From: Candidatus Nanohaloarchaea archaeon
GTDB taxonomy: Archaea; Nanohalarchaeota; Nanosalinia; Nanosalinales; Nanosalinaceae
Assembly (NCBI GenBank): GCA_041640035.1
Contig: JBEQBC010000001.1
Coordinates: forward strand, 192,001-256,000
Reading direction: 5' to 3'
Length of the DNA stretch: 64,000 bases
A model generated the notes under the pieces. The model saw nothing but the letters and a program-made list of their open reading frames with translations, did no database searches and was not told the DNA's origin. Of this stretch, positions 15,535 to 60,404 are shown one piece after another. Position numbers and translations under genes: made by a program. Numbering within the stretch: the stretch's first letter is position 1; each line of letters starts with the position of its first letter.

Positions 15535-16803
15535 GTGATACTCAAAAACATCCGATACCTGGTTACTCAGAACCGTGAAAGGGAGATTTTGGAGAATGTT
15601 GACATCTTGATTAGTGGTTCTGAGATTGCTGCGATCGGAAGAGATATTCCGGAAGGCAATCACGAAGTCCTTGACTGCAGTGATAAGGTTGTTATGCCGG
15701 GTTTGATTAATGCTCATACTCATGCTTCTATGACTCTTTTGCGTGGTATCTCCGACAATAAGGAACTGCAGGAGTGGCTTGAACAGGATATCTTTCCTGC
15801 GGAAGAGAAACTGGATGAGACTGATGCGTATGTAGGTTCTCTCTTGGCTTCGATAGAGATGCTTGAAACCGGTACCACTACTTTCAACGATATGTATGAT
15901 AATATGGATCAGGTAGCTGAAGCAGTGGATCAGACCGGTATCCGTGCGGTTCTTGGAAGAGGACTGATGGATATGGATGGAGAAATCGAGGAAAGAATGG
16001 AGGAAGCAGTTGACCTGGTGGAGAACTACAGTAGTCATGAGCGGATCACTGCCTGTTTCGCACCTCACGCCGTATACACTGCTTCAGAACAGCTTTTACT
16101 GGAGGCCAAGGACTGTGCAGAAATATTCAACACGCCGTATCACATACATGTATCTGAGACAGAGCAGGAGAAGCTTGATGCTATGGAGGAACAGGGAGAA
16201 ACACCTCTCGAATACTTGGACCAGCTCGGACTCGTAAATGATGATTTAGTAGCTGCTCACGGTGTCTGGCTCACTGAAACAGAGAAAGAATTACTTGAGA
16301 ACCAGGGCGGAAATGTGGTACACAATCCTGCAGCTAATCTCAAACTGGGAAGCGGTATCGCAGATGTACCCGATCTACTCAACCGAGGGATAAATGTAGC
16401 TCTGGGAACAGATGGAGTAGCATCCAACAACAACCTGAACCTTTTCGAGGAAGCCAAGCTAACATCTATCCTTCATAAGAGAGGTTCTCCTGAGGATATC
16501 GATGAGCAGCAAGTCCTTGATATGGCGACGATCAACGGAGCGAAAGCATTAGGAATCAATGATCAAGTAGGTTCTATCGAACTAGGTAAACAAGCTGATC
16601 TGATAACGATAAGTCTTGATAAGCCGTCGATGAATCCGGTTCACGGGGAAAGAGGATTGATATCCAACCTTGTGTACTCCTTCAGCGGCGATGTAGATGA
16701 AGTGATTGTGAACGGTGATCTTAAAGTGAAGAACGGAGAAGTTCAAACTGTTAAGAAAGATAGGATAGTTGAAGAGGCTTCCTCCCGTTCCAGCAAGTTC
16801 TAG
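15535..16803 (+). CDS. Amidohydrolase, MTA/SAH-deaminase-like
   Basis: PGLINAHTH, APHAVYT, HIHVSET, LGTDG motifs. Confidence 0.88.
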   Translation: MILKNIRYLVTQNREREILENVDILISGSEIAAIGRDIPEGNHEVLDCSDKVVMPGLINAHTHASMTLLRGISDNKELQEWLEQDIFPAEEKLDETDAYVGSLLASIEMLETGTTTFNDMYDNMDQVAEAVDQTGIRAVLGRGLMDMDGEIEERMEEAVDLVENYSSHERITACFAPHAVYTASEQLLLEAKDCAEIFNTPYHIHVSETEQEKLDAMEEQGETPLEYLDQLGLVNDDLVAAHGVWLTETEKELLENQGGNVVHNPAANLKLGSGIADVPDLLNRGINVALGTDGVASNNNLNLFEEAKLTSILHKRGSPEDIDEQQVLDMATINGAKALGINDQVGSIELGKQADLITISLDKPSMNPVHGERGLISNLVYSFSGDVDEVIVNGDLKVKNGEVQTVKKDRIVEEASSRSSKF

Positions 16804-17858
16804 TAATTTCTGAGGAACTCCTTGATAATTCTCTCAAACTTTTGCATACTCTGCTTTAAAATGTACTCTTCGTCGCCATGAATTCCACCACCTTTTGGAC
16901 CCATTACAACGCTGGGTACATCTTGTTCCGAGAAATGCCGCATATCACTCGCTGCAGTCTTCCTCTCCAAGACAGCTTCACTCCTTTCTGAAGCGATATC
17001 CAAGAGTTTCTGAACATTCTGATCTTCTCTATCAGTTTTCAGCTTCGGATCAACATGAGTCATATCCCATTCAAGCCCCTCTATTTCACTCAAGTCCTCT
17101 CTGATCTCTTCAGGACTATACTCCTCAGTATATCTGATATCCAGCCCTGCTTCAGCCTCATCCGGGACCACATTCATCGCACCCGGCGATTCAAAGTATC
17201 CAAGGTTGACAGTTGTCGTCCATTCTCCTTCCTCGTTCCTGAAGTTCTCTCTGAACTCGGAGTATTTGCTCCACAGCTTTTCAGCAGCGTTTTCACCATT
17301 CCAAGGCTGCGATCCGTGCGCATTATCCCCCTTGGCTTTTAGTTTCAGCCGGATTACTCCTTTCTGATCTGTGACTATCTGCATCTCGTTTTCGCTGGAG
17401 TTAGGTTCAGCGCTTAACGCAAATTCAGGGCTGTATTCCTTTGCGAGTGGTTGCGCGCCGTCGAAACCACCGATTTCCTCATCTGAAACAATCATCAGAC
17501 CTACTGATCCAAGTTGATTCTCTTCTGATAGTTCTTTGACTGCTTTCATGAGGCATGCAAGCCCTGATTTCATGTCTGCTGCGCCTCTGCCGTAGATTTT
17601 TTCCTCGTCCTCTGAAGGTTCGAACATTTCCTCATTGGCATCTACCACATCTAGATGGCCGTGAAGCAAGACATCTGGGTCTTCCTCCGTGGATATGACC
17701 ATAGTTGTGTGTCCATTTATCTCATGGCGGCGTATATCCAAATCTGTGTTGCTGAAGTAGTTCTCTATGTATTGGAATCCTCTTTCGAACTCTTCTGTGT
17801 TTTCTTTGACTGTTCTGAATTTGACAAGGCTTTTCGTGATCTGTTCCAAGCTTTCCAT
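16800..17858 (-). CDS. M20 family metallopeptidase/deacylase
   Basis: GHLDVV, GRGAADMK, DEEIGG, C-terminal H. Confidence 0.9.
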   Translation of the reverse strand: MESLEQITKSLVKFRTVKENTEEFERGFQYIENYFSNTDLDIRRHEINGHTTMVISTEEDPDVLLHGHLDVVDANEEMFEPSEDEEKIYGRGAADMKSGLACLMKAVKELSEENQLGSVGLMIVSDEEIGGFDGAQPLAKEYSPEFALSAEPNSSENEMQIVTDQKGVIRLKLKAKGDNAHGSQPWNGENAAEKLWSKYSEFRENFRNEEGEWTTTVNLGYFESPGAMNVVPDEAEAGLDIRYTEEYSPEEIREDLSEIEGLEWDMTHVDPKLKTDREDQNVQKLLDIASERSEAVLERKTAASDMRHFSEQDVPSVVMGPKGGGIHGDEEYILKQSMQKFERIIKEFLRNY

Positions 17859-17862
17859 AATT

Positions 17863-19041
17863 TTACACCTCTAATGCCTGTGAAGTACCGTAATCTGTAT
17901 CTTCCTCTGCATCGCTGTACGGTATGCCGGCTTCATCCATGAATTCGGCAGCTTCGTTTACAAACTGTTTGACATATGTCTCATCGGATGGACGGTACTG
18001 AAGTTCTAAGGCGTCACGGTTTTCATCTCCTGACTCCAGTTTTCCAGGGTTGAATCCTGCGTACTCGAACCCGAGATCATGTAGTTGCTGGGCTGCATCC
18101 ATACCTGCTGGACTGTTCGCATCAAGCGATATTCCTACCCAGAAGTCGTCGCCTTCGGAGATATCTCTCTGGGCATCGACTATTTCACCGAGCACATCGT
18201 CCCAGGTGTAGTCACCGTCTTCATCCGCTACAACTGATACCTCAGCGAAGTTCATAGGATCATCTTCTGGTTTATCGACTGCCTTGGACTCAACACTGTA
18301 CCTCTGATCTTCCCTACTTTCTGATTCGTTGAGAACATCTCTGGTGATATCTTCCAGGCTCTCATCTCTTTTATCTTCAATATTATCCAGTGCTGAGTTA
18401 ACCAGGCTTTCGGCTTCTTCCGGCGTGTAGACCTCTTCCTGGTCGTTCTCTATACGGCTGTCGGCCCAGAGCATATCCACGACTGTTACTCGGCCTTTTC
18501 CTTCGTAGGCAATCGGGAACTTCTTGTCGTAGACACCTGTTACAGCGAAGTCGTGTTTATCGGCTGTATGTTGTGTGGCTGCGGATTTATCCGCCAGCAA
18601 CTGTGTATTAACTAGGTCTACAGCACCTTGATCCTTTAGCTGAGCGGCTGCATCAAGTCTTTCCTCGAAAAGCCTGTCGTATACGCCCTGTCCTTCAGGT
18701 GTACTGCTTTCCCGGTACTCAGGTACTATTATAGTTGAACCTAGTTCCGCAAGGTTTTCATGGAACTTGATGGCTCCGGCTCCGACAAAATCACGGTTAT
18801 CTTCGTTTTCAACCGCCCATAGCATTTCTTCAGGCGGATCTTCAGGATCTACCTGTTCTGGCATCTCTTCAGTGAACTCTTCGAGTGCTTCTGTGTCTAC
18901 ATATTTTCCGTAGTATTTGACATATTCGTCGTTGAATGCTTCTACTATTTTTTCTGCGTGCTGTGTTTCAGCTGTCTGTATATCCGGTTCTACGGAATCG
19001 TGTTGCGTGGCGTCGTTCTGTGCGTTGTTCTGTATTGACAT
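17863..19041 (-). CDS. Divergent tandem GNAT-fold acyltransferase
   Basis: AELGSTIIVPEYR...GQGVY motif A; second-domain LGFEYAGFNP. Confidence 0.6.
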   Translation of the reverse strand: MSIQNNAQNDATQHDSVEPDIQTAETQHAEKIVEAFNDEYVKYYGKYVDTEALEEFTEEMPEQVDPEDPPEEMLWAVENEDNRDFVGAGAIKFHENLAELGSTIIVPEYRESSTPEGQGVYDRLFEERLDAAAQLKDQGAVDLVNTQLLADKSAATQHTADKHDFAVTGVYDKKFPIAYEGKGRVTVVDMLWADSRIENDQEEVYTPEEAESLVNSALDNIEDKRDESLEDITRDVLNESESREDQRYSVESKAVDKPEDDPMNFAEVSVVADEDGDYTWDDVLGEIVDAQRDISEGDDFWVGISLDANSPAGMDAAQQLHDLGFEYAGFNPGKLESGDENRDALELQYRPSDETYVKQFVNEAAEFMDEAGIPYSDAEEDTDYGTSQALEV

Positions 19042-19110
19042 TATTTTGTCTTAATCACCTGTTGAGAAAGCGGTTCACCCATTTTGGAAATTATAGTTGG
19101 GAAAACCGAT

Positions 19111-19179
19111 TCAGAAGCTATAGAAGTAGAAATAGCTGGAGCTACTCATCAAAGATGCAGATAGAGTGTTTCCAGCCAT
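19111..19179 (-). CDS. Putative leader/precursor peptide MAGNTLSASLMSSSSYFYFYSF
   Basis: ATG downstream of a TATA-like TTTAAT; 9-bp hairpin over the start; Tyr/Phe codon run; hairpin after the stop. Confidence 0.55.
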   Translation of the reverse strand: MAGNTLSASLMSSSSYFYFYSF

Positions 19180-19245
19180 ACCCAAGATGTTACCCGGTGA
19201 TAATTAAATACCTTTTGACTAAGGGAAAGAAGAAAAGGAAGGATA

Positions 19246-20001
19246 TCATCCCTGTTTTCTGGCTTTGAAACCTACCATATCATCATATCCTGTCGTTGAC
19301 ATCAACACAGGGTAGAAATCTTCATCTGCCTTCAGCTTGTCTCCTGGTTTCTCGGCGTATGTTTCTCCTTTCTGTACTTTCTGGAAGTTCTCCTTCATGA
19401 ACTGATATCCGCTGCCCTGAACAGTCTCGTATATCCGGTACTTCTCAGGGTTCCTCTGTTTGACTTCTCCAGGAAGAACATCATTCGCCATCAGGAAGTT
19501 CTTCAGCACCGAGTAAGCGTTCCTGATCGTCTTTTCCGAACGCACATATCCACATTCAACAGCAATCCTATCACATCCGGGTATCTGATGACTGTAAGCT
19601 TCCTCGATGCTCACCGCTTTATCCACGCCAAGGTTCCTCAACTGTTTACTGGAGAAGTCCGAGCCTTCAGTCTCCAGTCCGAACGCCTCCGGATGTGAGA
19701 AAGAGGAGTGTATGTCCAAAACTTTCTTTCCTCTGATCTCTTCTTCGATTTTCCTGGCCAGTTCCTTTTCATGAGTGTCCTCTGAGTCTGTGCTCCAGAC
19801 ACGGTTGAGGTCGTCTTCCAGCTGGCTTCTACCCTTGCTGTATGCTTTCTCGTTCGCGAATACGAACTTGACAGGTTTCTGAACTTCAATGTCTCGATGC
19901 ATCAGTCTTTCTACTGCCAGTTTGCCGCATGGTTCGTTTCCGTGTACGCAGTACATGACCGCGTGTTCAGGTTCGCCTTCTCCCAGTTTCTTTACCTTCA
20001 T
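19246..20001 (-). CDS. Succinylglutamate desuccinylase/aspartoacylase (AstE/AspA) family
   Basis: HGNE, DLNR, LDIHS, VECG motifs. Confidence 0.88.
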   Translation of the reverse strand: MKVKKLGEGEPEHAVMYCVHGNEPCGKLAVERLMHRDIEVQKPVKFVFANEKAYSKGRSQLEDDLNRVWSTDSEDTHEKELARKIEEEIRGKKVLDIHSSFSHPEAFGLETEGSDFSSKQLRNLGVDKAVSIEEAYSHQIPGCDRIAVECGYVRSEKTIRNAYSVLKNFLMANDVLPGEVKQRNPEKYRIYETVQGSGYQFMKENFQKVQKGETYAEKPGDKLKADEDFYPVLMSTTGYDDMVGFKARKQG

Positions 20002-21449
20002 TGTAACTCCCTCTCTGCATCGTATGCCGTCAGGTTTCTAGTCATGTAAGCTACCTGTCCGGCATCATCCAAGGCGTTTTCAAGCTCGGATAAAGCTACT
20101 TCTCTACCTGCTACTTCTTCGAATAGTTCCTGGTTACGGTCGTAGAACTGTTCTAGGCTTTCTACATCGAACTTCTCCGATCCACGGTTCACATTCAGGT
20201 TGTCATCGTCGTCTGAAACTCTCGCAATATATGAAGCAGTGTCTGGTTCTCCGTTGGATACTATCAGTGGTACGAAGTCGATTGGACCGCCGTCAGCTTC
20301 AACTATGTGGTATTTATCGCCGTCCATCTCTGTGGTTCCTGCAGCAGCTTGCTCCATTACTGCGTAATCCGTATCTCCACGGCTATAGAATCCCTCTTCT
20401 CCTACCAGGTCTATATCTCCTCTGTTTGATTTCTCTGAGACTCTGGCGGACTCACTGTCAATCATCACATCCACATAGTCCTGGATATTATCTGAAGCGT
20501 TTTGCCCGTCAAGAAGCGCTCTCCCGCTGTATTCTCCTTTCACGAACTGTCTCTGCACTGCGGTCTGAAAATCTTCGTAGTCGAATACGACGATGCTGTC
20601 TCCCCAGCTACCCATTGGATCAGTCTTCAGTACAACTGATTCTCCATCCTGGAAACTGTCCTGAACCATCTCGTAGATCTCTTCTCTGCTCTCCACTGTC
20701 TGTGCATCTACTGCCTGCGCCTGATCGAACCCCTGCACCACGGAGTTGGCTTTATCCATCAACGCGGGTTTCTGTGTCTCTTCAAGTCCGGAGTTCCATA
20801 CTGCTGTAGGAGCATTCACGATATTTCCTAATGCAGCCGGCTCAGAGATTCTTTCTGTAAGGTTTTCTCCTCGATCACTCAGATTGATACATCCATCAAC
20901 GGTTCTACCATCATACACAATCTCGCCCTCTATATCTTCGATGTTCCGTCCGCCGTATGTCAGATGAACAGTTTCTACACCTTCTGCATCAGGAATACCT
21001 GAGAGACCAGAGCTTCCATATTCGGCTCCTTTTGCAAGATTCAGTTTCTCCTCTATCAGCCATTCCTCGCTCAATCCAAGTTCTCTTATCTGACTGCTGA
21101 AACCGTCATCTTGAGGATCAGGTAGTTCCTCTGCTGTAACGAGGCCTTCATCGCCGGTGAAAGCGTATTCGGGCAGGTTTACAACTATCTCGCCGTTGAC
21201 CTGTTCAGTCAGTGCTTCTGCCACCTGGCCTGTGATATCCTCTTCTTGAAGGCTGCTGTGCTTCATCAGTCCTTCGGGGAACGCGTTGATATCTCCGACT
21301 ATGACGGCTTCGTATTGGTCCCTGTCCTCGTTGTATGCCAGTTTGGTGTCAGCGCTTGTCAGCGCCGAAGCCTCCAGATTTTCTGTTCTGGTTTCTGGTG
21401 CGTCCGGTTCCAGAGCTTCTTCAACGCCTTTCAGTTTTCCGGCGCTCAT
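19998..21449 (-). CDS. Divergent RimK-like ATP-grasp protein
   Basis: VVLKTDPMGSWGDSI, AVMEQ, YIARV...NVNRG; the terminal ExN motif is not evident. Confidence 0.55.
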   Translation of the reverse strand: MSAGKLKGVEEALEPDAPETRTENLEASALTSADTKLAYNEDRDQYEAVIVGDINAFPEGLMKHSSLQEEDITGQVAEALTEQVNGEIVVNLPEYAFTGDEGLVTAEELPDPQDDGFSSQIRELGLSEEWLIEEKLNLAKGAEYGSSGLSGIPDAEGVETVHLTYGGRNIEDIEGEIVYDGRTVDGCINLSDRGENLTERISEPAALGNIVNAPTAVWNSGLEETQKPALMDKANSVVQGFDQAQAVDAQTVESREEIYEMVQDSFQDGESVVLKTDPMGSWGDSIVVFDYEDFQTAVQRQFVKGEYSGRALLDGQNASDNIQDYVDVMIDSESARVSEKSNRGDIDLVGEEGFYSRGDTDYAVMEQAAAGTTEMDGDKYHIVEADGGPIDFVPLIVSNGEPDTASYIARVSDDDDNLNVNRGSEKFDVESLEQFYDRNQELFEEVAGREVALSELENALDDAGQVAYMTRNLTAYDAERELQ

Positions 21450-21580
21450 AGAGCTCTGTACCTGCCTTTGTTTCCGTTAGAAGGTTTTGAATTGCGGCGT
21501 TGGGTTGCGTTTGCGTAGTTCTGTTTAATTGTTTGATCACCTTGTAGAAGTACGAGTAAGTCTATATTCGGAGACTTACT

Positions 21581-21658
21581 CTATTTCATAAACTCAAAGA
21601 AAAAGCTGAAGCTGCCACTAAAGTTCTGAATGTCAGATTCTTGGCAGCCTGTAGACAT
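21581..21658 (-). CDS. Putative leader/precursor peptide MSTGCQESDIQNFSGSFSFFFEFMK
   Basis: GGCTGCCA/TGGCAGCT stem; six Phe codons; 10-bp hairpin GAGTAAGTCT/AGACTTACTC at the stop. Confidence 0.55.
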   Translation of the reverse strand: MSTGCQESDIQNFSGSFSFFFEFMK

Positions 21659-21770
21659 ACTCCAAAATAGTGGTGTCTGTTCTTTAATAATTTACCCTGC
21701 GTAGAAAGTTCTCATCTATGCCGTGCAGAAGGGAAATAAAAGGGAGAGAAAGAGATGTGGAGAGTACTTT

Positions 21771-22877
21771 TTATACATTCGCGTCCTTGAGATCTGGTTT
21801 CTCGTCGATACGCGGTATATCAAGTGAGCTCTTGATCTTTCTGAACTTCTGGTGGTCGTTGCTTTCCAGAAGTGTGATTGCTTCTCCTTCTCGTCCCTGT
21901 CTTCCGGCTCGACCGATTCTATGTGTGTATGTGTCGGCTGTATCCGGTACATCGTAGTTGAATACATGTGTTACTCGGTCTACATCGATTCCTCTTGCTG
22001 CTACATCTGTTGCCACGATTACTTTGATATCGCCGTTTTCGAACTTCTCCAGTGTATCTTCTCTCTGGTTCTGGCTCATGTCGCCGTTCAGTTCCTGTGC
22101 ATCGATACTGTTTTTCCTTAGTTTGTCGGCCAACCATCGTGTAGTGTTCTTGGTCTGGCAGAAAACTATTGCGAGATCTCTGTCCTTCTCTTCGAGGAAG
22201 GTGTAGAGGTAGGAGAGCTTGTTATTGTTCTTCACATTAACATACTTCTCCTCAAGCTCTGCGGTGTGCTCTCCAGGTTCAATCCTGATGATCTCCGGAT
22301 CGATATCGTAACGGTCGCACATCTTCGTCAAAGCCTTCGGAATCGTTGCTCCGAACAAGAGATTCTGTCTTTCTTCCGGCAGGAAGCTGATGATTGATTC
22401 CAGTTCGTCCTGGAATCCCATGTCGAGCATCCGGTCTGCTTCGTCAAGTACAAAGTACTCTAGGTTTTCTACATCGATCTTTCCTTTCTGCAGAAGGTCG
22501 AGTACCCGTCCTGGTGTTCCGACTACGATGTTTGCGGTCTTTGCGCCTTCGATCTGTGGTTCATATGAAACTCCTCCGTAGATTGTTACTGCGTCAATCT
22601 GTGAGGATGCCATTTCGATCTCTGCTGTGATCTGTTTGGCTAGTTCTCTTGTTGGTGAGAGGACGAGTGCTTTGGTTTCGTCGCCTTCCAGTTGTTCGAT
22701 TATTGGTAGTGAGAAGGCTAGTGTTTTTCCTGATCCGGTCTCTGATTCGACCAGCAGGTCTTTGCCTTCGAAAACTTTTGGTATTGCTTTTTCCTGTACT
22801 TCTGTAGCTTCTGTGATGCCTTCTTTTTCAAGTCGCTGAACGGTGTGTTGTGAAATATCTAGTTCTGAGAAATTCAT
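21771..22877 (-). CDS. DEAD-box RNA helicase
   Basis: ETGSGKT, PTRELA, TPGR, LDEAD, ARGID, HRIGRAGR. Confidence 0.95.
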   Translation of the reverse strand: MNFSELDISQHTVQRLEKEGITEATEVQEKAIPKVFEGKDLLVESETGSGKTLAFSLPIIEQLEGDETKALVLSPTRELAKQITAEIEMASSQIDAVTIYGGVSYEPQIEGAKTANIVVGTPGRVLDLLQKGKIDVENLEYFVLDEADRMLDMGFQDELESIISFLPEERQNLLFGATIPKALTKMCDRYDIDPEIIRIEPGEHTAELEEKYVNVKNNNKLSYLYTFLEEKDRDLAIVFCQTKNTTRWLADKLRKNSIDAQELNGDMSQNQREDTLEKFENGDIKVIVATDVAARGIDVDRVTHVFNYDVPDTADTYTHRIGRAGRQGREGEAITLLESNDHQKFRKIKSSLDIPRIDEKPDLKDANV

Positions 22878-22966
22878 GCTGTAATTCAAACTCGTTATAA
22901 AAAGAATATGGTGGGGGAAGGCTTTTAGAACTGACCGCAGATAGAAATCGTTTCTGATTCTGGGAA

Positions 22967-24088
22967 CTAGCTGTTTTTAACGGCCAGACGCTTGCTTATC
23001 CCGTAATAAGCGTTTCTCAATTTCTTCAGGGTCTCTACCTCACACATCTCGTTCTCCCCATGAACTGTTTTTTGATTGGTTCCCAGTTCTATGAACGGAG
23101 TATCCTTTTCTGCGAAGAATCTTCCGTCGCTGGCTCCTCCGTCAGTAATCTCATCAGGACGGTTTTCACGAACTTCCTTCAATGTTTCTATAGATGCCTC
23201 TCTGAAATCAGGGTCCTGAAGCTCGAAAGCACCGCCGTGATCCTGTTCGACTTCTACTCTGAAACCGCACTCTATTCCTTCTAAAGCGTTTTCAACATCT
23301 TCCACGATTTGTTCGATGCTCTGGGATGGCAGGTACCGTATATCCATTCCGATCTCCAGTTCTCCAGGAACGCTGTTATAGGTCTGAGTTGTTTCTATCC
23401 GTGTTACTTCCTTGCTTGGGTCCGGTAGAGTACCTTTATTCTCGAATGTAAGCTCCATATTGTTTAAACGATCCAGTACCTCTGGTAGCTCCTCCATAAG
23501 ATGGATTTCCGCCAGATTTGCTCTACTGGCATGTATTCCCTCTCCTTCTAGCTGGATGTTCAGCCAGACCACTCCGCGTGTACCGACCTGTACATTCATA
23601 TCGGTGGCTTCACCGACAATCGCATAGTCGAAGCCGTCTCCTTCACTGTAGTATTCATCTACAAGTGGTTGAGAGCCTTTGAAACCACCGATTTCTTCGT
23701 CTCCAACAGCCATGAGAACTGCTCTTCCGTTGAACTCACTGTCCCTGTGGAGGTCGATAAATGCTTTGACCTGTGCTGCGAGTGCTGCTTTCATGTCGGC
23801 TGCGCCTCTTCCGTACAGTTTTCCGTCCTCGATTACAGGGTCAAAAGGTTCTGTGACGCTCCATTGACCTTCTGGTTCTACTACATCAAGGTGTCCGTTG
23901 AGGCAGATGCTTGGTCCTTCGTCTCCTGTCTCTGCTGTCAGGTTGTATACTCCGTCGATTTCGTGTATCTCTGCCTGTATGCCGTGTTCTTCTAGCAGTC
24001 CTTTCAGGTACTGGAATATTTCAGGGTTTTCAACCGGTGAAACGGTTTCGTACTTCATAAGTTCCATTGCTATTTCTTCTGTCTTCAT
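22967..24088 (-). CDS. M20 family (DapE/ArgE-like) metallohydrolase
   Basis: NGHLDVV, GRGAADMK, DEEIGG, GGASDGRF. Confidence 0.9.
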   Translation of the reverse strand: MKTEEIAMELMKYETVSPVENPEIFQYLKGLLEEHGIQAEIHEIDGVYNLTAETGDEGPSICLNGHLDVVEPEGQWSVTEPFDPVIEDGKLYGRGAADMKAALAAQVKAFIDLHRDSEFNGRAVLMAVGDEEIGGFKGSQPLVDEYYSEGDGFDYAIVGEATDMNVQVGTRGVVWLNIQLEGEGIHASRANLAEIHLMEELPEVLDRLNNMELTFENKGTLPDPSKEVTRIETTQTYNSVPGELEIGMDIRYLPSQSIEQIVEDVENALEGIECGFRVEVEQDHGGAFELQDPDFREASIETLKEVRENRPDEITDGGASDGRFFAEKDTPFIELGTNQKTVHGENEMCEVETLKKLRNAYYGISKRLAVKNS

Positions 24089-24090
24089 CC

Positions 24091-25992
24091 TTAGTCTGCA
24101 CCTACTGAATTTGTGCGTTTGTTGTCTTCGAATCCTGCATGTGGATTTGTTGATGTGGCTTGTTTTTCAATTTTCTCTGCCTCAGTTCCTTCATCAACAT
24201 AGTTAAGCATCTCTTCACGGTATGTATCGGTAAACCAGTCAACAAACTGGCTGTATTCATCTTCAAATTCGTCAACACTGTATGTGCCGGGTTCAAGATC
24301 TTTTTCATCGTACAGCTGAGCGGTGTAATCCGCAAAATCGGATAAATCATCGAACTGGCTATCCAAGTATCCTTCAAAGCTGTCATAATGATCTAGATCG
24401 TCAAGAACAAGTTCAGCAGAGAAAGGAAGTTCGCCGCTGAAAGATTCTCTGACTCCCTCCGCAAGAATATCCACAAGCTCGTTCTCATAAACTGCGTCTA
24501 GATCAGCACCACTTGGAAGCTCTGCATCAAGCCCGTTTCTCTTCGCGTCTTCACGGAACTCCAACGCGTTTTCTGTCTCCAAGCCGTGTTCATGGAATAG
24601 TTCCTGAACCTGATCGTAGACATTTATCAGGCTTTTCTGGGTTAGAAGCGCTTCATGGCTTCTCGGACTGTTGCTGAATGAACGGAACTCGATTATCCCA
24701 TCGTTCTTCGGAGCGATATCAGGTCTGACAAAGGTATTATGGTATGTAAAGTATCCTGCCTCATCTTCAGTTCCAAGGCCTGCTACTTCCAGGAATTCTT
24801 CGGTTGAGAGATCTGAGTGATCGACCTTGACAGGTTTCATCACTTCTTCGCCGTCTTCCTCTACCAGTATCTCTCCAAGGTACTGCTGATCCTCAGCGAA
24901 CTGTTCGAAGGTGACTACTGACTCCTCTATTCCGGAGAGCCCAGGCATCACCCAGGTTGATTCCATTCCGTACTCTTCATCTACAGTTCCCTCTGGCTGG
25001 TGTGTTTCTTCATCCAGAACCTGTATCTCTGATCCGTCAACTTCGGGAGAGAGGATCATCGGCCGTTCCATAACCATCTCTATATAGTCCTCGTGGTCTT
25101 CTACATCGGATAGATCCTCTATATTTCCGTAGTTCTCGTTGGTAGGTAGTGCTTCGTCAAGTACATCGCCCCAGCGCTCTGTTCCGTTCCGCAGAGCTGC
25201 TGGAGAATTGGAGACAAACAGGTCATATATCAGGTCTCTTCCGCCTTCAGCAACTGCCTCATACAGTCCGTCTTCGTCCTCTTCTAGTACAGGGTCGTTG
25301 GAGAATAGTGTGTCTACCCCGGGTATTACATCGAGCATTCCTGGTTTTTCTCCGCCGTTAAAGAAGCTGTGGAAGAATTCCTCTATCTCCTGCTCTTCTC
25401 CTACAGGTGTACCAGTGTTGAGCTGTGTTGCTGCAGGCCAGCCCATAGCATCGAACAGTTCTCCGTGTCTGCTTCTCAAGCCGGTGTAACGCGGCTTTGG
25501 TCTTCTGTTCCTGTCAGCTTCACCTTCAGTGGCGAACTCCCTCATCAGACCGTTTTCGTATGCTTCATGTCCTTCTGGCAGGTTCCGGTCCCTCATCTGT
25601 GAGAGGTGTTCCATCCGGAACATCATATCTGACGGGTTCTGGAATACTTCAGTTGCTATCTCGCTCTGAGCCGGGTGGTAGTCCGTATCGATTTCCGCTG
25701 AGAAATCTTTGTGTTCTTTGAAGTTATCGTCTTCTACGCTGACGCCGAGCATTTTTTTCTCTCCGTTGATTTCCTCAGTCTCAGGTTCGGCGTCTTCGTT
25801 TGCAATTAAGTTTTGGAACGCTTCTACTGCTTCTTCGTTGTCGATCAGTCCGTCTTCTTTTCTGATGATGTCTTCTTTTTCTGCTCCGACATTTGCTTGG
25901 CTGTTTTCTGTAAAGTTTTCATCCCAGAGTGTTCCCAGTGATTCTACTAACTGGTTCTGAGTACTTTTGCTTTTTTGCTGGCTTGCTGACAT
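24091..25992 (-). CDS. Divergent glutamate-cysteine-ligase-2 (carboxylate-amine ligase) fold protein
   Basis: VGAEKE, QSEIAT, ATQLNTG, VRPD...GIIEFR motifs. Confidence 0.6.
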   Translation of the reverse strand: MSASQQKSKSTQNQLVESLGTLWDENFTENSQANVGAEKEDIIRKEDGLIDNEEAVEAFQNLIANEDAEPETEEINGEKKMLGVSVEDDNFKEHKDFSAEIDTDYHPAQSEIATEVFQNPSDMMFRMEHLSQMRDRNLPEGHEAYENGLMREFATEGEADRNRRPKPRYTGLRSRHGELFDAMGWPAATQLNTGTPVGEEQEIEEFFHSFFNGGEKPGMLDVIPGVDTLFSNDPVLEEDEDGLYEAVAEGGRDLIYDLFVSNSPAALRNGTERWGDVLDEALPTNENYGNIEDLSDVEDHEDYIEMVMERPMILSPEVDGSEIQVLDEETHQPEGTVDEEYGMESTWVMPGLSGIEESVVTFEQFAEDQQYLGEILVEEDGEEVMKPVKVDHSDLSTEEFLEVAGLGTEDEAGYFTYHNTFVRPDIAPKNDGIIEFRSFSNSPRSHEALLTQKSLINVYDQVQELFHEHGLETENALEFREDAKRNGLDAELPSGADLDAVYENELVDILAEGVRESFSGELPFSAELVLDDLDHYDSFEGYLDSQFDDLSDFADYTAQLYDEKDLEPGTYSVDEFEDEYSQFVDWFTDTYREEMLNYVDEGTEAEKIEKQATSTNPHAGFEDNKRTNSVGAD

Positions 25993-26125
25993 TCTAGTTT
26001 GTTTCCACCTTGTTGTTGGTTGTGTTCTTGGTGGAATGCAGAAACAGAGACTGTTTATTTTACCAAACAGTTCTTCGAGGTCCCGTCCCCGTTTCTACAT
26101 TCCGATCTGTAGGGAAGGACCTCGG

Positions 26126-26218
26126 TCATACAATAATTGAGATAATAATGATAGCGATAAGGCTAACCAAACCTGCTGAACCAGTACTTTCTGTCTCTTG
26201 GTTAGCCGTTAAAGACAT
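26126..26218 (-). CDS. Putative leader/precursor peptide MSLTANQETESTGSAGLVSLIAIIIISIIV
   Basis: 10-bp GGCTAACCAA/TTGGTTAGCC stem; seven Ile codons; hairpins after the stop; alternative in-frame ATG at 26230. Confidence 0.55.
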   Translation of the reverse strand: MSLTANQETESTGSAGLVSLIAIIIISIIV

Positions 26219-26282
26219 GTTTACAAACATTCCTTGTTGCCAAACGGTTTTAAAGGTACTCTAGGCCCCGGATGGTTGTACC

Positions 26283-28013
26283 TCAAACTACTCTCGGACT
26301 AAGTTCCTCCTGAACTTCCGGCGAACCTGAAAGGCGTTCCTCTACATATTCTGCGAAGCCATCCGCGTACTCCGGAGCCATTGCTTCCGCAGTCGCCATC
26401 ACATCATCATCGTAGACCTCTCTGAATACTTCTCCCCAGACCTCTTCATCATCGTAGTCTGGAACTGTTTCGGGATTCGATGGGTCGATACCTTGCTGTT
26501 CCATTGCTTCACGGATCTTATCGCCGTGAGGCATTATCGCAGCTTTCGCGAGTGCTACGCTTGGTTCGTCTTCATAGTTCTGACGGGAGTTTCTGTACTC
26601 GAATCCTCCGGTCTGGAATTTGGGTCTTACATCGTGGTGTAGTCCGCCGATGTGTTGTTCCGAAAAGTTGCCCTTATGATACTCCTTGAGCTCGTCTTCG
26701 CTCATACCTGTTAGATCGACCGTTCCACGGACTCGTTTCAATCCGTCCTCTCCATCTGTGACTATCTTGGTGAAATCTACTTCGCCGTCCTCGATATACT
26801 CTCTCGGCGTCTTTGGATTTTCAGGATCGACTGTCAGCATAGCCACACTTTCATAGTCAAAGTCTTCAGGTACATCGTCCTTGAACTCGACATGTTCTCT
26901 GTCAGGTTTGGCTATCCAAGCCATGTGGTGGCCGGTCATGTACTCATCTACCATTCCTTGGAAGGCATCTCCGTCACTGTCCATAATCGAATCGATGACA
27001 TTCCATGGTGTACCGGTTCTATCAAGCGCTGCCTCATCTACATCGGCATCATCGAGGAAGTGCTGACCATATGCACTGTTCTCCCAGTAGTCCTGGTTAA
27101 CACCGGTTTCCGGCTGTCCCTCATCTTCCTCGCTGTAAACATTAGAGGTCAATACATCGAAAGCTCCTTCAAACACTATCCGGTAAGCCATCTCTTCAGA
27201 CATGCGTTCGTCTACATCGATTTCTCCGTCATCGCTCCAGAGACCGGATGTGAGCTGTGTGGATCCTCCGAACATGTTCTCCATTATCTGAGGTCCGAAG
27301 ATCGTACTGATGTAATCGGCACAGTACTCCACAGAGCTGAAATGATCGTAAAACTCCTCTGAGAACTCTACAGCTTCATCTCGTCCGTATTCGTCTCCTA
27401 AGCCACGCTTGACAACTTCACGGTCACCGATCTCGTCAGGTGTCCTCTCCGGTTCACGGAATTGACGGGTTAAACCTTGATCTGCGAATTCAAGGTCGGG
27501 GTGGTTCTCCTGTATGTATTTTCTCGTTCCTTCTCTCAGGCTTTTCAGTACATCAAGAAGTGTTCCGAAGTTTCCGGAGCCGTCTATCTGGAAGGCACCT
27601 GAGTCTATCTCGATCTGAGGTCCGATCTCCCAGTCTGCTGCTGGAGCACCGATAACCTGATCTGACTCCTGACTTTCTTCAACCTCTATCTCTGCTGGTC
27701 TATCCTCGAAATGACCTTTTTCCTTAACGCCCTTGAGTTCGAAGCTGAATTCTTCTCCGTAGCCGTCTACATTCTCTTCGAGTTCTTCCTCGATGCTCTC
27801 CCAAAGTCCTTCGCTGATTATATCCTGATAATCTGGGGCTAACGGCATAACACCGTCTTCTTCTCTGACTATCGGGTTCTCGCTCTCCACGCCCATGCCG
27901 GTTGGCCCGACATTTTCCTCATAGTTGTCCTTGAATTCCTCTGTGAACTCTTCTACGATTTCATCGTAGTCAAGTTCTGCGGCAGCGGTGGAGGTTTCGC
28001 CTGTTGCTGACAT
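26283..28013 (-). CDS. Divergent glutamate-cysteine-ligase-2 (carboxylate-amine ligase) fold protein
   Basis: MGVESE, PQIEIDS, STQLTSG, HDVRPK...GGFEYR motifs; SD GGAGGT. Confidence 0.65.
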   Translation of the reverse strand: MSATGETSTAAAELDYDEIVEEFTEEFKDNYEENVGPTGMGVESENPIVREEDGVMPLAPDYQDIISEGLWESIEEELEENVDGYGEEFSFELKGVKEKGHFEDRPAEIEVEESQESDQVIGAPAADWEIGPQIEIDSGAFQIDGSGNFGTLLDVLKSLREGTRKYIQENHPDLEFADQGLTRQFREPERTPDEIGDREVVKRGLGDEYGRDEAVEFSEEFYDHFSSVEYCADYISTIFGPQIMENMFGGSTQLTSGLWSDDGEIDVDERMSEEMAYRIVFEGAFDVLTSNVYSEEDEGQPETGVNQDYWENSAYGQHFLDDADVDEAALDRTGTPWNVIDSIMDSDGDAFQGMVDEYMTGHHMAWIAKPDREHVEFKDDVPEDFDYESVAMLTVDPENPKTPREYIEDGEVDFTKIVTDGEDGLKRVRGTVDLTGMSEDELKEYHKGNFSEQHIGGLHHDVRPKFQTGGFEYRNSRQNYEDEPSVALAKAAIMPHGDKIREAMEQQGIDPSNPETVPDYDDEEVWGEVFREVYDDDVMATAEAMAPEYADGFAEYVEERLSGSPEVQEELSPRVV

Positions 28014-28061: not shown

Positions 28062-28127
28062 TTAGAACTGTCCGTAGATGTGGATCTCGTCCTGCAGAAC
28101 GCGTCCACCTGTGATTGCTACTGACAT
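28062..28127 (-). CDS. Putative leader peptide MSVAITGGRVLQDEIHIYGQF
   Basis: Contains GGTGGACGCGTTC (28109-28097); ATG downstream of TTTAAA. Confidence 0.55.
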   Translation of the reverse strand: MSVAITGGRVLQDEIHIYGQF

Positions 28128-39893: not shown

Positions 39894-40020
39894 GGTCCAT
39901 TAGCTCAGGGGTTAGAGCACCGTCCTTATAAGGACCTCACACAGAAAAAACCTTACTTGATCCTGTGTGTTGCCTCCATAAGAGAGGCGGCGGTCCCGGG
40001 TTCGAATCCCGGATGGACCA
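39894..40020 (+). tRNA. tRNA-Ile(UAU) with 54-nt intron (39931-39984) at 37/38
   Basis: Acceptor GGTCCAT/ATGGACC; anticodon stem CCGTC/GGCGG; loop CT-TAT-A; CTTA/TAAG BHB-type helix; TTCGAAT T-loop. Confidence 0.85.
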
Positions 40021-45983: not shown

Positions 45984-46034
45984 ATGATTTCCGTCCTTAG
46001 AACTCAGGGTGGACGCGTTCTGGAGCATCAATAA
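45984..46034 (+). CDS. Putative leader peptide MISVLRTQGGRVLEHQ
   Basis: Contains GGTGGACGCGTTC (46008-46020); ATG downstream of an AT-rich TATA-like stretch. Confidence 0.55.
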   Translation: MISVLRTQGGRVLEHQ

Positions 46035-60266: not shown

Positions 60267-60404
60267 GGGAGTGTAGCTCAATCTGGGAGAGCGACCGCCT
60301 CCAGAACAATTTACTGGAGGAATGAGAACCGGTTTGAACTGGTTCGATGATTAACTCTTCGTGGAGTAAGCGGTAGGTTGCATGTTCAAATCATGCCACT
60401 CCCA
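60267..60404 (+). tRNA. tRNA-Trp(CCA) with 64-nt intron (60305-60368)
   Basis: GGGAGTG/CACTCCC acceptor; ACCGC/GCGGT stem; CTCC/GGAG BHB helix. Confidence 0.9.

What the first reader, a model, noticed from the sequence alone, without database searches (positions are those of the whole stretch)
17863..26230. Three cassettes of hairpin + hydrophobic-codon-run micro-ORF, each heading a ligase/transferase-peptidase pair
Seen in sequence (minus strand): 19179-19111 MAGNTLSASLMSSSSYFYFYSF precedes GNAT + M20; 21658-21581 MSTGCQESDIQNFSGSFSFFFEFMK precedes ATP-grasp + AstE; 26218-26126 MSLTANQETESTGSAGLVSLIAIIIISIIV precedes GCS2-fold ligase + M20. The layout is the same in all three. A TATA-like element is followed by the ATG, then a 9-10-bp stem built on GGCT (GGCTGGA/TCCAGCT, GGCTGCCA/TGGCAGCT, GGCTAACCAA/TTGGTTAGCC). 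A run of Tyr/Phe, Phe or Ile codons comes immediately after the stem, then the stop, a second hairpin at the stop, and an AGGTG SD. The Ile run alternates ATC/ATT in frame, so it is codon-periodic and not just a T-tract. Established: pheL/ilvL-type attenuator peptides have such codon runs, and RiPP clusters pair a short precursor with a ligase and a peptidase. Inference: either archaeal ribosome-mediated attenuation, or a family of precursor peptides (polar leader + hydrophobic core) each processed by its own adjacent enzyme pair.
Basis: partly seen in the sequence, partly recalled or inferred. Interest (0 to 1): 0.88.

Follow-up and report, generated by a model that had tools for sequence, protein, structure and literature searches.

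The report
Archaeal leader-peptide amino-acid sensors
Three tiny upstream genes, each ending in a run of isoleucine, phenylalanine or tyrosine codons and flanked by conserved RNA hairpins, most likely let the ribosome sense amino-acid supply and switch on or off the enzyme pair behind them, a bacterial-style control that my literature searches did not find described in archaea.

Summary

The organism is a ~0.98 Mb nanohaloarchaeon; relatives are named so.

The Ile-run micro-ORF is conserved. It lies upstream of 19 of 21 homologues of the 633-aa enzyme that have intact upstream DNA. Indels keep the frame, and the front half varies freely.

Four helices around it hold across relatives; the long-range helix P3 covaries most clearly. 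They are an in-ORF stem, a hairpin abutting the stop codon, P3 (which competes with that hairpin) and an anti-SD:SD helix.

Tyr/Phe-run and Phe-run ORFs recur before orthologues of the other two enzymes, with different sequences but the same layout. Paralogues carry Leu/Ile runs. One orthologue has no micro-ORF at all.

Best reading (0.7): ribosome-mediated, probably translational, attenuation that senses charged tRNA. The sign of the response is not settled. RiPP precursors are unlikely.

The enzyme labels hold unevenly. The GCS2 fold is supported, ATP-grasp and GNAT only weakly; M20 and AstE are solid.

No expression data exist.

The parts
26248..26254 (-). Cassette 3: TATA-like box, 30-36 nt before the micro-ORF start. 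This implies a leaderless or near-leaderless transcript.
   Evidence: Sequence read. The same box at the same distance is seen in relatives. No TSS data.
26126..26218 (-). Cassette 3: micro-ORF of 30 codons. Its last 11 codons include 7 Ile codons, run at 26132-26158.
   Evidence: It is conserved in 19 of 21 homologous loci with intact upstream DNA. All alignment gaps are multiples of three in 12 of 12 sequences.
26161..26207 (-). Cassette 3: helix P1 inside the ORF. Its 3' arm ends 2 nt before the Ile run.
   Evidence: 7 pairs, 100% of cells paired. Three pairs changed on both sides. Slid controls gave 11-47% paired.
26076..26124 (-). Cassette 3: hairpin P2 (segments 1 and 2), starting 2 nt after the stop codon.
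   Evidence: The helix covaries, with 4 of 8 outer pairs changed on both sides.
26091..26103 (-). Cassette 3: 5' strand of long-range helix P3. It lies in the loop and inner 3' arm of P2.
   Evidence: 18 pairs in relatives, 91.6% of cells paired. 13 doubly changed cells against 5.5 +/- 1.6 in shuffles (0 of 500 shuffles reach it).
26033..26045 (-). Cassette 3: 3' strand of P3. Its last four bases (26033-26036) are also part of the anti-SD at 26030-26036.
26003..26009 (-). Cassette 3: Shine-Dalgarno site of the 633-aa gene. It pairs with 26030-26036 (helix P4).
   Evidence: P4 is 86% paired, with 2 of 6 pairs changed on both sides.
24091..25992 (-). 633-aa protein with a glutamate-cysteine-ligase / carboxylate-amine-ligase (GCS2) fold.
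   Evidence: No Pfam or NCBIfam hit. AF2 pLDDT 86. Foldseek top hit 2gwc, E 1e-9, TM 0.70 by target; then YbdK, GshA, PafA/Dop.
22967..24088 (-). M20 peptidase (ArgE/DapE-type deacylase), partner of the 633-aa gene.
   Evidence: Pfam E 3e-36 and NCBIfam. It follows the 633-aa homologue in most loci whose downstream DNA I held, including 25-30% identical ones; the interrupted, scaffolded G067 loci show none.
21682..21694 (-). Cassette 2: TATA-like box.
21581..21658 (-). Cassette 2: micro-ORF of 25 codons, with 6 Phe among its last 13 (run 21590-21622). P1 is at 21610-21649.
   Evidence: The homologue in G042 has a 40-codon ORF with a Phe/Trp/Tyr/Met-rich tail and an equivalent P1.
21554..21581 (-). 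Cassette 2: 10-bp hairpin P2, starting at the last base of the stop codon.
21536..21542 (-). Cassette 2: SD-like site, 87 nt upstream of the annotated start. A frame without a canonical start codon stays open from here to a stop that overlaps that start.
19998..21449 (-). 483-aa protein, weakly ATP-grasp-like.
   Evidence: No Pfam hit. AF2 pLDDT 78. Foldseek best RimK 4iwx, E 2e-3, TM 0.44 by target; other ATP-grasp ligases at E 0.004-0.1. The PDB sequence profile found nothing relevant.
19246..20001 (-). AstE/AspA-family (succinylglutamate desuccinylase / aspartoacylase) hydrolase.
   Evidence: Pfam PF24827, E 2e-8. Also follows the 483-aa homologue in G042.
19201..19208 (-). Cassette 1: TATA-like box, 22-29 nt before the start codon.
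19111..19179 (-). Cassette 1: micro-ORF of 22 codons. Its last 7 are 3 Tyr, 3 Phe and 1 Ser (run 19114-19134). P1 (19132-19179) includes the start codon.
   Evidence: Tyr/Phe-rich ORFs of the same layout precede orthologues in G003, G023, G022 and G018; none in G026.
19066..19112 (-). Cassette 1: hairpin P2 at the stop codon, followed by a short pyrimidine-rich stretch.
19054..19060 (-). Cassette 1: SD of the 392-aa gene, 12 nt before its start.
17863..19041 (-). 392-aa protein, possibly GNAT-fold (Fem-like?).
   Evidence: Pfam Acetyltransf_3 only at E 0.045. PDB profile: FemX-type lipid II glycyltransferase 6snr, E 0.024. Atlas neighbours are mostly GNAT clusters, score 0.95.
16800..17858 (-). 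M20 peptidase, partner of the 392-aa gene.
   Evidence: Pfam E 9e-29. An M20a-like gene lies downstream of the 392-aa homologue in G026, G020, G032, G036 and G003 (L028), and upstream in G022. None was found within the loci for G003 (L018) or G023.
28062..28127 (-). Fourth leader micro-ORF (21 codons) of another class, with a Gly-Gly-Arg-Val-Leu-Gln core. It has a TATA-like box upstream and lies ahead of the 576-aa gene (26283-28013).
   Evidence: The 576-aa protein is weakly related to the 633-aa family (hhalign probability 64%, E 7e-5).

Best explanation
**What it is.** Each cassette is a cis-acting amino-acid sensor of the leader-peptide type.
- Transcription starts a few bases before, or at, the micro-ORF start codon, so the micro-ORF is the first thing translated.
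- Its tail is a run of codons for one amino acid or a small set: Ile; Phe; Tyr with Phe.
- How fast a ribosome crosses that run depends on the supply of the matching charged tRNA.
- Where the ribosome sits decides how the RNA behind it folds, and that sets expression of the ligase-type enzyme and the hydrolase that follow.

**Ile cassette: the RNA parts.** There are four segments.
- Segment 1 is the 5' arm of hairpin P2 and starts right after the stop codon.
- Segment 2 is the P2 loop plus the inner 3' arm.
- Segment 3 lies about 45 nt further on and can pair with segment 2 (helix P3).
- The tail of segment 3 is also the anti-SD, which pairs with segment 4, the Shine-Dalgarno site (helix P4).

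**My reading (inferred).**
- A ribosome that completes the ORF and sits on the stop codon melts segment 1. P3 then forms, competes with P4 for the shared bases, and the SD is more open.
- A ribosome stalled in the Ile run, 6-33 nt upstream of segment 1, leaves P2 intact. P4 then hides the SD.
- That gives expression when Ile-tRNA is plentiful.
- I put this sign at about 55% within the hypothesis. The opposite sign, induction on starvation as in bacterial attenuators, stays open.

**Cassettes 1 and 2.** They share the promoter, P1, run, stop and P2 layout. I could not identify their output helix. In some relatives P2 is followed by a T-tract, so it may act on transcription.

**Shown and inferred.**
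- Shown: conservation of frame, run and helices.
- Inferred: translation, leaderless start, ribosome-dependent refolding, and the sign of regulation.
For: 1. **The frame is conserved, the peptide is not.**
   - In 12 aligned Ile leaders every gap is a multiple of three (12 of 12).
   - The front half varies at all three codon positions: 9/12, 11/13 and 10/11 columns variable.
   - The tail keeps 7-10 Ile/Leu codons with synonymous changes.
   - Distant homologues (25-40% identity) keep an Ile/Leu(/Phe) run through different codons.
2. **Occurrence.**
   - Genome loci: 9 of 11.
   - Metagenome loci with intact upstream DNA: 10 of 10.
3. **Helices.**
   - P1: 100% paired, 3 of 7 pairs doubly changed.
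   - P2 and P4: 86.6% paired, 6 pairs doubly changed (19 of 500 shuffles reach this).
   - P3: 91.6% paired, 13 doubly changed cells against 5.5 +/- 1.6, 0 of 500 shuffles.
   - Slid controls for P3: 42-59% paired.
   - P1 exists in every leader class with unrelated arm sequences.
4. **Overlapping helices.**
   - P2 and P3 share the inner 3' arm of P2.
   - P3 and P4 share 3-4 bases.
5. **Position of the stop codon.** It abuts P2 in all three window cassettes, at 0-3 nt.
6. **The run tracks the enzyme.**
   - Orthologues of the 392-aa gene carry Tyr/Phe runs.
   - Its ~30% identical paralogues carry Leu/Ile runs.
7. **The platform is modular.**
   - A covariance model of the post-stop RNA hit 10 of 70 genomes of the phylum.
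   - Three hits were not found through the 633-aa protein.
   - One lies before a 576-aa-type gene, again behind an Ile/Leu-run ORF.
8. **Precedent.** Leaderless short ORFs ending in Cys runs control SD access in mycobacteria (10.1101/834739, abstract and passages read).
Against: **No expression data.**
- No RNA run holds this DNA.
- TSS, transcript ends and translation are therefore all unproven.

**Equilibrium folding gives no consistent switch.** I folded with the ribosome footprint blocked at the run or at the stop. The SD-unpaired fraction (free / stalled / at stop) was:

| Locus | free | stalled | at stop |
|---|---|---|---|
| G000 | 0.20 | 0.20 | 0.31 |
| G055 | 0.09 | 0.26 | 0.36 |
| M047 (metagenome locus L047) | 0.20 | 0.78 | 0.83 |
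| G024 | 0.16 | 0.13 | 0.14 |
| M052 (metagenome locus L052) | 0.24 | 0.14 | 0.10 |

- In several sequences a slightly shortened P3 coexists with P4.
- P3 is the ground state in most sequences even without a ribosome.
- P2-outer plus P3 could be a pseudoknot rather than alternatives.

**Limits of the covariation and of the mechanism.**
- The shuffle control is only moderate (19-37 of 500).
- The sequences are related, which inflates such scores.
- For cassettes 1 and 2 I found no anti-SD.
- The SD-like site of cassette 2 is 87 nt from the start.
- Hairpin-dependent pausing or termination is not an established property of archaeal RNA polymerase (my recall).

**Counter-examples.**
- G026 has the enzyme pair without a micro-ORF.
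- One G067 copy has a shifted frame, beside a truncated gene copy.
- G065 has the run frame without a start codon.

**Unusual targets.** The regulated genes are not biosynthetic genes or tRNA synthetases, unlike the targets I recall for known amino-acid attenuators.
Confidence: 0.7

Rival explanations
1. The micro-ORFs encode precursor or substrate peptides (RiPP-like). The adjacent ligase-type enzyme and peptidase modify or process them.
For: - Three amide-bond-forming folds, each with a peptidase, sit next to a short ORF.
- The Ile peptide tail is strongly conserved.
- Foldseek hits of the 483-aa model include ATP-grasp peptide ligases 3wvq/3wvr and 8ynd, at weak E-values of 0.004-0.07.
- PafA/Dop, which act on a small protein, are among the hits of the 633-aa model.
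Against: - Peptides before orthologous 392-aa enzymes (50-58% identity) share only Tyr/Phe richness. I saw no conserved recognition or core positions by eye; these peptides were not aligned.
- The G026 orthologue pair has no micro-ORF.
- The front half of the Ile peptide varies at all codon positions.
- The same RNA platform with a run ORF precedes other gene families.
- The covarying helices that tie the stop codon to the SD have no role in this reading.
- No RiPP-recognition or known RiPP enzyme domain was found by Pfam.
Confidence: 0.08
2. The leaders are structured RNA elements that bind a metabolite or a protein, as a riboswitch or protein-dependent leader would. The open frames are by-products and are not translated.
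For: - Nucleotide conservation in the Ile run is high even at synonymous sites among the closer relatives.
- The helices covary.
- No data show translation.
Against: - The start codon, the frame (gaps always multiples of three) and a stop at a fixed place before P2 are kept in 19 of 21 loci.
- Distant members keep the amino-acid run with other codons.
- Three cassettes with unrelated sequences share the ORF-run logic.
- The codon run itself is predicted unstructured.
- No Rfam family matches.
Confidence: 0.1
3. The micro-ORFs encode small hydrophobic peptides with their own function, for example membrane peptides or type-I-toxin-like peptides. They are merely co-transcribed with the enzymes.
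For: The Ile peptide has a hydrophobic tail of about 17 residues.
Against: - The hydrophobic stretches in cassettes 1 and 2 are only 7-11 residues and aromatic.
- Relatives vary in sequence while keeping only composition.
- The ORFs always sit as the first cistron before particular enzyme families.
Confidence: 0.04

Closest known systems
Leaderless polycysteine short ORFs of mycobacteria (cysteine-responsive translational attenuators, 'Cys ribulon'; 10.1101/834739, abstract and passages read)
   Same: - A short ORF is the first cistron, at or next to the transcript 5' end.
- A codon run for one amino acid lies at the 3' end of the ORF.
[quoted passage not shown]
- Several operons in one genome carry such ORFs.
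   Different: - In mycobacteria the Cys run itself pairs with the SD region, and the stalled ribosome frees it (induction on starvation).
- Here the run is unpaired, and a relay of three helices lies after the stop codon.
- The domain of life is Archaea.
- Several amino acids are sensed: Ile, Phe, Tyr and Leu.
- The targets are uncharacterised amidoligase-hydrolase pairs, and the sign may be reversed.
Classical leader-peptide transcription attenuators of bacteria (trp, his, phe, ilv, leu, thr leaders; recalled, and as summarised in passages of PMC4007540)
   Same: - A short leader ORF carries a run of codons for the regulating amino acid.
- Overlapping, mutually competing helices are read out through ribosome position.
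- The position of the stop codon relative to the next helix matters.
   Different: - No hairpin-plus-U-tract terminator lies before the structural gene of the Ile cassette; the last helix hides the SD.
- The regulatory codons lie upstream of segment 1, not inside it.
- The start is leaderless.
- The targets are not biosynthetic.
ermC-type translational attenuation (recalled)
   Same: A four-segment relay in which ribosome position in a leader ORF decides whether the SD of the next gene is paired.
   Different: - There the stall is drug- and peptide-dependent and lies inside segment 1.
- Here codon runs suggest sensing of tRNA charging.
Amidoligase-peptidase gene neighbourhoods: ATP-grasp, glutamine-synthetase/GCS2-like and GNAT-fold amidoligases with M20 or AstE-type peptidases. 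Recalled from comparative-genomics work by Iyer and colleagues, 2009. That paper was not retrieved; only papers citing its title appeared.
   Same: The same three amide-forming folds, each paired with a metallopeptidase.
   Different: - These proteins match no Pfam or NCBIfam model and occur only in Nanohaloarchaeota.
- I do not know of any codon-run leader described for such systems.

Membership tests
Classical leader-peptide transcription attenuator | Short leader ORF with a run of codons for the regulating amino acid | tested here: met
Classical leader-peptide transcription attenuator | Terminator hairpin followed directly by a U-tract, competing with an antiterminator | tested here: not met
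   - Ile cassette: the last helix is anti-SD:SD, and no run of four or more T follows a hairpin.
- Cassettes 1 and 2: inconclusive. P2 is followed only by a short pyrimidine-rich stretch.
- A T6 tract follows a hairpin in the G003 relative.
Classical leader-peptide transcription attenuator | Regulatory codons lie within segment 1, so that a stalled ribosome frees segment 2 | tested here: not met
   The Ile run lies 6-33 nt upstream of segment 1 and is unpaired.
Leaderless short-ORF translational attenuator (mycobacterial type) | ORF starts at the transcript 5' end | tested here: inconclusive
   A TATA-like box starts 29-36 nt before the start codon in all three cassettes and in relatives. There are no TSS data, and no RNA run is available.
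Leaderless short-ORF translational attenuator (mycobacterial type) | SD of the downstream gene is held in a helix | tested here: met
   Met for the Ile cassette only: P4 is 86% paired, with 2 of 6 pairs doubly changed. Not found for cassettes 1 and 2.
Leaderless short-ORF translational attenuator (mycobacterial type) | The codon run itself pairs with the SD region | tested here: not met
   The run is unpaired in the centroid folds.
RiPP precursor with tailoring enzymes | Conserved recognition or core sequence shared by peptides of orthologous enzymes | tested here: not met
   Cassette 1 relatives share only composition. The Ile tail is conserved.
RiPP precursor with tailoring enzymes | The peptide gene accompanies the enzymes wherever they occur | tested here: not met
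   G026 has the 392-aa homologue plus M20 without a micro-ORF.
GCS2 / carboxylate-amine ligase superfamily (633-aa protein) | Fold match to solved members | tested here: met
   2gwc at E 1e-9, then YbdK and GshA. Catalytic residues were not examined.
ATP-grasp superfamily (483-aa protein) | Fold match to solved members | tested here: inconclusive
   Best E 2e-3, TM 0.29/0.44. No sequence-profile match.
GNAT superfamily (392-aa protein) | Sequence or profile match | tested here: inconclusive
   Pfam E 0.045. PDB profile E 0.024 to a Fem-type transferase. Atlas neighbours are mostly GNAT clusters. No model was made.
Any Rfam RNA family | Match at gathering score | tested here: not met
   Only three tRNAs were found in the whole window.

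The most novel reading that the evidence does not exclude
Nanohaloarchaea carry a phylum-wide, modular family of ribosome-read sensors, an archaeal 'ribulon'.
- Leaderless micro-ORFs have Ile, Leu, Phe or Tyr runs.
- A second class has a conserved Gly-Gly-Arg-Val-Leu core that may act as an arrest peptide.
- Both gate lineage-specific amidoligase-hydrolase modules.
- The logic is the reverse of bacterial attenuators: the genes are expressed only when the matching charged tRNA is plentiful.
- The enzymes would then consume or conjugate surplus hydrophobic amino acids in an organism that appears to make few of its own.

This would be the first leader-peptide attenuation described in Archaea.
Probability: 0.3. 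Interest if true: 0.9.

Novelty: new variant of a known kind. Interest (0 to 1): 0.8.

Why it matters
**A gap in archaeal gene regulation.**
- Sensing amino-acid supply through ribosome speed on a leader peptide is a textbook bacterial mechanism.
- Eight full-text searches found no description of it in Archaea. I recall none either.
- Archaea couple transcription and translation and often use leaderless mRNAs, so the absence has been a puzzle.
- Here is a conserved, testable set of candidates with several amino-acid specificities.

**A handle on unknown enzymes.**
- The amino acid in each leader predicts the substrate class of the enzyme pair behind it.
- These ligase-hydrolase families have no known function and are found only in host-dependent nanohaloarchaea.

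**Practical use.** The leaders are small enough to test in Haloferax reporters.

Tried and rejected

- Rfam scan of the whole window: only tRNAs.
- Expression data: no RNA holder listed for this DNA.
- Laying contigs of four DNA runs:
  - Relatives about 95% identical cover all three leaders.
  - The listed indels fall outside the micro-ORFs.
  - The tables were truncated (2423 differences and 77 indels not shown), so I draw nothing from them.
- Peptide-enzyme complex prediction, 633-aa family with the 30-residue Ile peptide: no verdict.

**Analyses that failed or misled**
- Equilibrium folding with blocked footprints gave no consistent change in SD accessibility. A simple thermodynamic switch is therefore rejected, and a kinetic, co-transcriptional one is assumed.
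- A C/D-box sRNA reading of cassette 1 was considered by eye. I dropped it because the other cassettes lack the boxes.
- Slippery-site or frameshift and shunt-like readings of the hairpin after the stop were considered but not tested.
- The genome-wide scan found no further hydrophobic-run cassette in this genome. A four-Trp ORF on C10 and others lay antisense to, or inside, coding regions without a promoter or hairpins.
- BLASTP among the four large proteins showed no paralogy. Only hhalign linked the 576-aa and 633-aa proteins, weakly.
- Biosynthesis check:
  - IlvD was not found in this 89% complete genome.
  - A prephenate dehydratase is present on contig C16.
  - Full auxotrophy is therefore not shown here.
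- One search aligned the wrong coordinates (coding sequence) and was discarded.
- The script crashed on a locus without an ATG-started run ORF; it was redone.
- The MAFFT alignment A4 of whole leaders was too rough, so I split it into A5 and A6.
- G023 is misaligned in the P3 columns of A5. It counts against the helix there.
- Supplementary files of papers were not consulted.

Full report
**1. What is there**

The window is part of contig C1 of a 978,572-base, 24-contig genome.
- tRNA genes with introns point to an archaeon. A very acidic proteome is my impression from the translations.
- Database relatives of its proteins are named Candidatus Nanohalobium, Nanosalina and Nanohaloarchaea.

On the minus strand between 16800 and 28013 lie, in order of transcription:
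- a 576-aa protein;
- a 633-aa protein followed by an M20 peptidase;
- a DEAD-box helicase;
- a 483-aa protein followed by an AstE/AspA-family hydrolase;
- a 392-aa protein followed by a second M20 peptidase.

**2. Anatomy of the three cassettes**

Each cassette has the same five parts:
- a TATA-like box starting 29-36 nt before the start codon, which in archaea predicts a transcript beginning at or a few bases before that codon (inference; there are no TSS data);
- a stem P1 between the front of the ORF and the bases just before the codon run (in cassette 1 the stem includes the start codon itself);
- an unpaired codon run;
- a stop codon;
- a hairpin P2 that begins 0-3 nt after, or within, the stop codon.

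The leaders fold 2.3 to 2.8 standard deviations better than dinucleotide shuffles.

An SD site lies 12 nt (cassette 1) and 10 nt (cassette 3) before the enzyme start. In cassette 2 the SD-like site is 87 nt upstream. From there a frame without a canonical start codon stays open to a stop that overlaps the enzyme start.

A crude scan of the whole genome gave these figures:
- 758 intergenic short ORFs were found.
- 51 had a single-residue or aromatic run.
- I looked at nine others with hydrophobic runs.
- None of the nine was a promoter-proximal leader with hairpins.

**3. Conservation of the Ile cassette**

Homologues of the 633-aa protein occur in two collections:
- in 9 of 70 genomes of the phylum at E <= 1e-30, and in 9 of 61 relatives at E <= 1e-3;
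- in 13 metagenome loci.

Of 11 genome loci with uninterrupted upstream DNA:
- nine have an ATG-started micro-ORF ending in an Ile or Ile/Leu(/Phe) run (G000, G001, G024, G008, G023, G068, G055, G038, G043);
- G065 has the run frame without a start codon, behind another micro-ORF;
- one of two G067 copies, beside a truncated gene copy and runs of N, has a shifted frame.

All 10 metagenome loci with complete upstream DNA have the micro-ORF. Two pairs are near-duplicates, which leaves 8 distinct loci. Two loci cut by a contig end or by N keep only the tail.

In an alignment of 12 ORFs, analysed:
- every gap is a multiple of three;
- the front half is variable at all codon positions;
- the tail keeps the run.

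More distant members spell the run with other codons. This is the pattern expected if translation of a codon run matters. It is not expected if a particular peptide, or only an RNA motif, matters.

**4. RNA helices of the Ile cassette**

| Helix | Cells paired | Covariation | Controls |
|---|---|---|---|
| P1 | 100% (7 pairs) | 3 pairs changed on both sides | slid 11-47% paired |
| P2 and anti-SD:SD helix P4 | 86.6% | 6 pairs changed on both sides | 19 of 500 shuffles reach this |
| P3 (long-range) | 91.6% (18 pairs) | 13 doubly changed cells vs 5.5 +/- 1.6 | 0 of 500 shuffles; slid 42-59% paired |

P3 joins the loop and inner 3' arm of P2 to a segment about 45 nt downstream.

P3 shares bases with P2 on one side and with the anti-SD on the other. 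The more distant metagenome loci L046 and L049 (about 38-40% identical) rebuild the same relay with other sequences.

Caveats:
- The sequences are related, which inflates shuffle tests.
- The structure was derived from these same sequences.
- G023 is misaligned in A5.

**5. Mechanism, and what the folding does not show**

The stop codon touches segment 1, while the Ile codons lie 6-33 nt upstream. So only a ribosome that finishes the ORF can melt P2. A stalled ribosome, or no ribosome at all, leaves P2 in place.
- With P2 open, P3 can form and compete with P4.
- This predicts an open SD when Ile-tRNA is plentiful.

Equilibrium folding with the footprint blocked did not give a consistent change in SD pairing.
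- P3 is the ground state in most sequences.
- A P3 shortened by three pairs can coexist with P4.
- P2-outer plus P3 could be a pseudoknot.

If there is a switch, it must therefore be kinetic. Its sign is an inference, about 55:45.

In relatives of cassette 1 the hairpin after the stop is sometimes followed by a T-tract: T6 in G003 and T4 in G018. Melting of that hairpin by a terminating ribosome would give the same sign through transcription. I did not test this.

**6. The other two cassettes in relatives**

Orthologues of the 392-aa protein (47-58% identity):
- In G003, G023, G022 and G018 they carry micro-ORFs of 20-22 codons.
- The tails are rich in Tyr and Phe, but the sequences are otherwise unrelated.
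- The P1 arms differ in sequence yet sit in the same position.
- G026 has the enzyme and its M20 partner directly after the helicase, with no micro-ORF.

Paralogues at about 30% identity (G003, G020, G032, G036) carry Leu/Ile-run frames instead.

The 483-aa protein has few accessible relatives. G042 has a 40-codon ORF with a tail rich in Phe, Trp, Tyr and Met, and an equivalent P1.

**7. A modular platform**

A covariance model of the post-stop RNA matched once per genome wherever the 633-aa gene is present, and twice in G067. It also matched three further places:
- In G072 it lies before a homologue of the 576-aa protein (48% identity), behind an Ile/Leu-run ORF.
- In G027 it lies behind a Leu/Phe/Ile-rich ORF.
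- In G069 it lies behind a two-ORF leader.

The same regulatory module is therefore reused before different genes.

**8. The enzymes**

| Protein | Evidence |
|---|---|
| 633-aa | Modelled well (pLDDT 86). Closest to plant glutamate-cysteine ligase, YbdK and GshA, then PafA/Dop. |
| 483-aa | pLDDT 78. Resembles ATP-grasp ligases only weakly. |
| 392-aa | Weak GNAT signals only, the best being a Fem-type aminoacyl-tRNA-dependent transferase at E 0.024. |
| 576-aa | Weakly related to the 633-aa family. |

- The ligase-hydrolase pairing is conserved. An M20b orthologue follows the 633-aa homologue in most loci with downstream DNA, including those at 25-30% identity. An AstE-type gene follows the 483-aa homologue in G042.
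- All three large families are confined to Nanohaloarchaeota in a 5.8-billion-protein search.
- Function is unknown. My inference is that each pair makes and hydrolyses an amide of the amino acid named by its leader.

**9. Rivals**

- *RiPP precursors.* The arguments against are the lack of conserved peptide positions among orthologous systems, the G026 pair without a peptide, and reuse of the platform before other genes.
- *Untranslated riboswitch-like RNA.* The argument against is conservation of the start, the frame and the stop position.
- *Stand-alone hydrophobic peptides.* This does not fit cassettes 1 and 2.

The complex prediction gave no verdict and is not used.

**10. What is known**

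Eight full-text searches found no leader-peptide attenuation described in Archaea. One methods paper states in its introduction that such uORFs act in archaea too, without an example in the passage I read (PMC10219788).

The closest described systems are bacterial:
- mycobacterial leaderless poly-Cys ORFs that control SD access (10.1101/834739; outline, abstract and passages read);
- predicted leaderless leader peptides in Deinococcus (PMC4007540, passages).

I therefore rate this a new variant of a known kind: new domain of life, new helix relay, new targets and possibly a reversed sign.

**11. Limits**

- There is no transcript, ribosome or protein evidence.
- Covariation for cassettes 1 and 2 rests on five and two sequences inspected by eye.

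Noticed in passing
window 28062-28127 (-): - A fourth leaderless-looking micro-ORF (21 codons) has no hydrophobic run but a Gly-Gly-Arg-Val-Leu-Gln core.
- It has a TATA-like box upstream and lies ahead of the 576-aa gene.
- In the examples I compared by eye, much the same nucleotide core and peptide motif recur in leaders of relatives: G003, G020, G032, G036, G065, G069 and G042.
- It could be an arrest peptide or an SD-like RNA motif.
   Followed up: partly
window 45984-46034 (+), gene 46095-46775 (+): A fifth micro-ORF (16 codons) has the same Gly-Gly-Arg-Val-Leu core and nearly the same nucleotides. It lies upstream of a class-I glutamine amidotransferase / peptidase C26-like gene.
   Followed up: partly
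window 21446-21544 (-); loci L022, L023, L028: - Between the SD-like site of cassette 2 and the 483-aa start, a 32-codon frame is open but has no canonical start. Its stop overlaps the enzyme start codon.
- In relatives an ATG-started ORF sits at the equivalent place after the SD: about 36 codons in L022 and L023, and in L028 a frame that runs into the gene start.
- It may be a relay ORF for translational coupling.
   Followed up: partly
loci L022, L023, L024, L028, L037, L060: Two-part leaders occur in relatives. A leaderless Gly-Gly-Arg-type ORF is followed, about 45-125 nt later, by a Leu/Ile-run frame that lacks an ATG, then a hairpin and an SD.
   Followed up: partly
window 13903-15474 (+): A reverse-transcriptase ORF (RVT_1, E 5e-16) lies in a low-GC patch, 0.37 against about 0.45 elsewhere.
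   Followed up: no
window 21771-22889 (-): A DEAD-box helicase sits between the cassettes. Its orthologue also lies directly upstream of the 392-aa homologue in G023 and G026.
   Followed up: partly
window 39894-40020 and 60267-60404 (+): Two tRNA matches of 127 and 138 nt, presumably containing introns.
   Followed up: no
G000 contig C16:889-1386 (L053): A prephenate dehydratase homologue is present, while IlvD was not found in this 89% complete genome. Aromatic amino-acid auxotrophy is therefore not established here.
   Followed up: partly
G067 contig C7 (L035, L038, L039): Two partial copies of the 633-aa gene are separated by runs of N. One leader has a shifted micro-ORF frame. This may be an assembly artefact or a decaying duplicate.
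   Followed up: no
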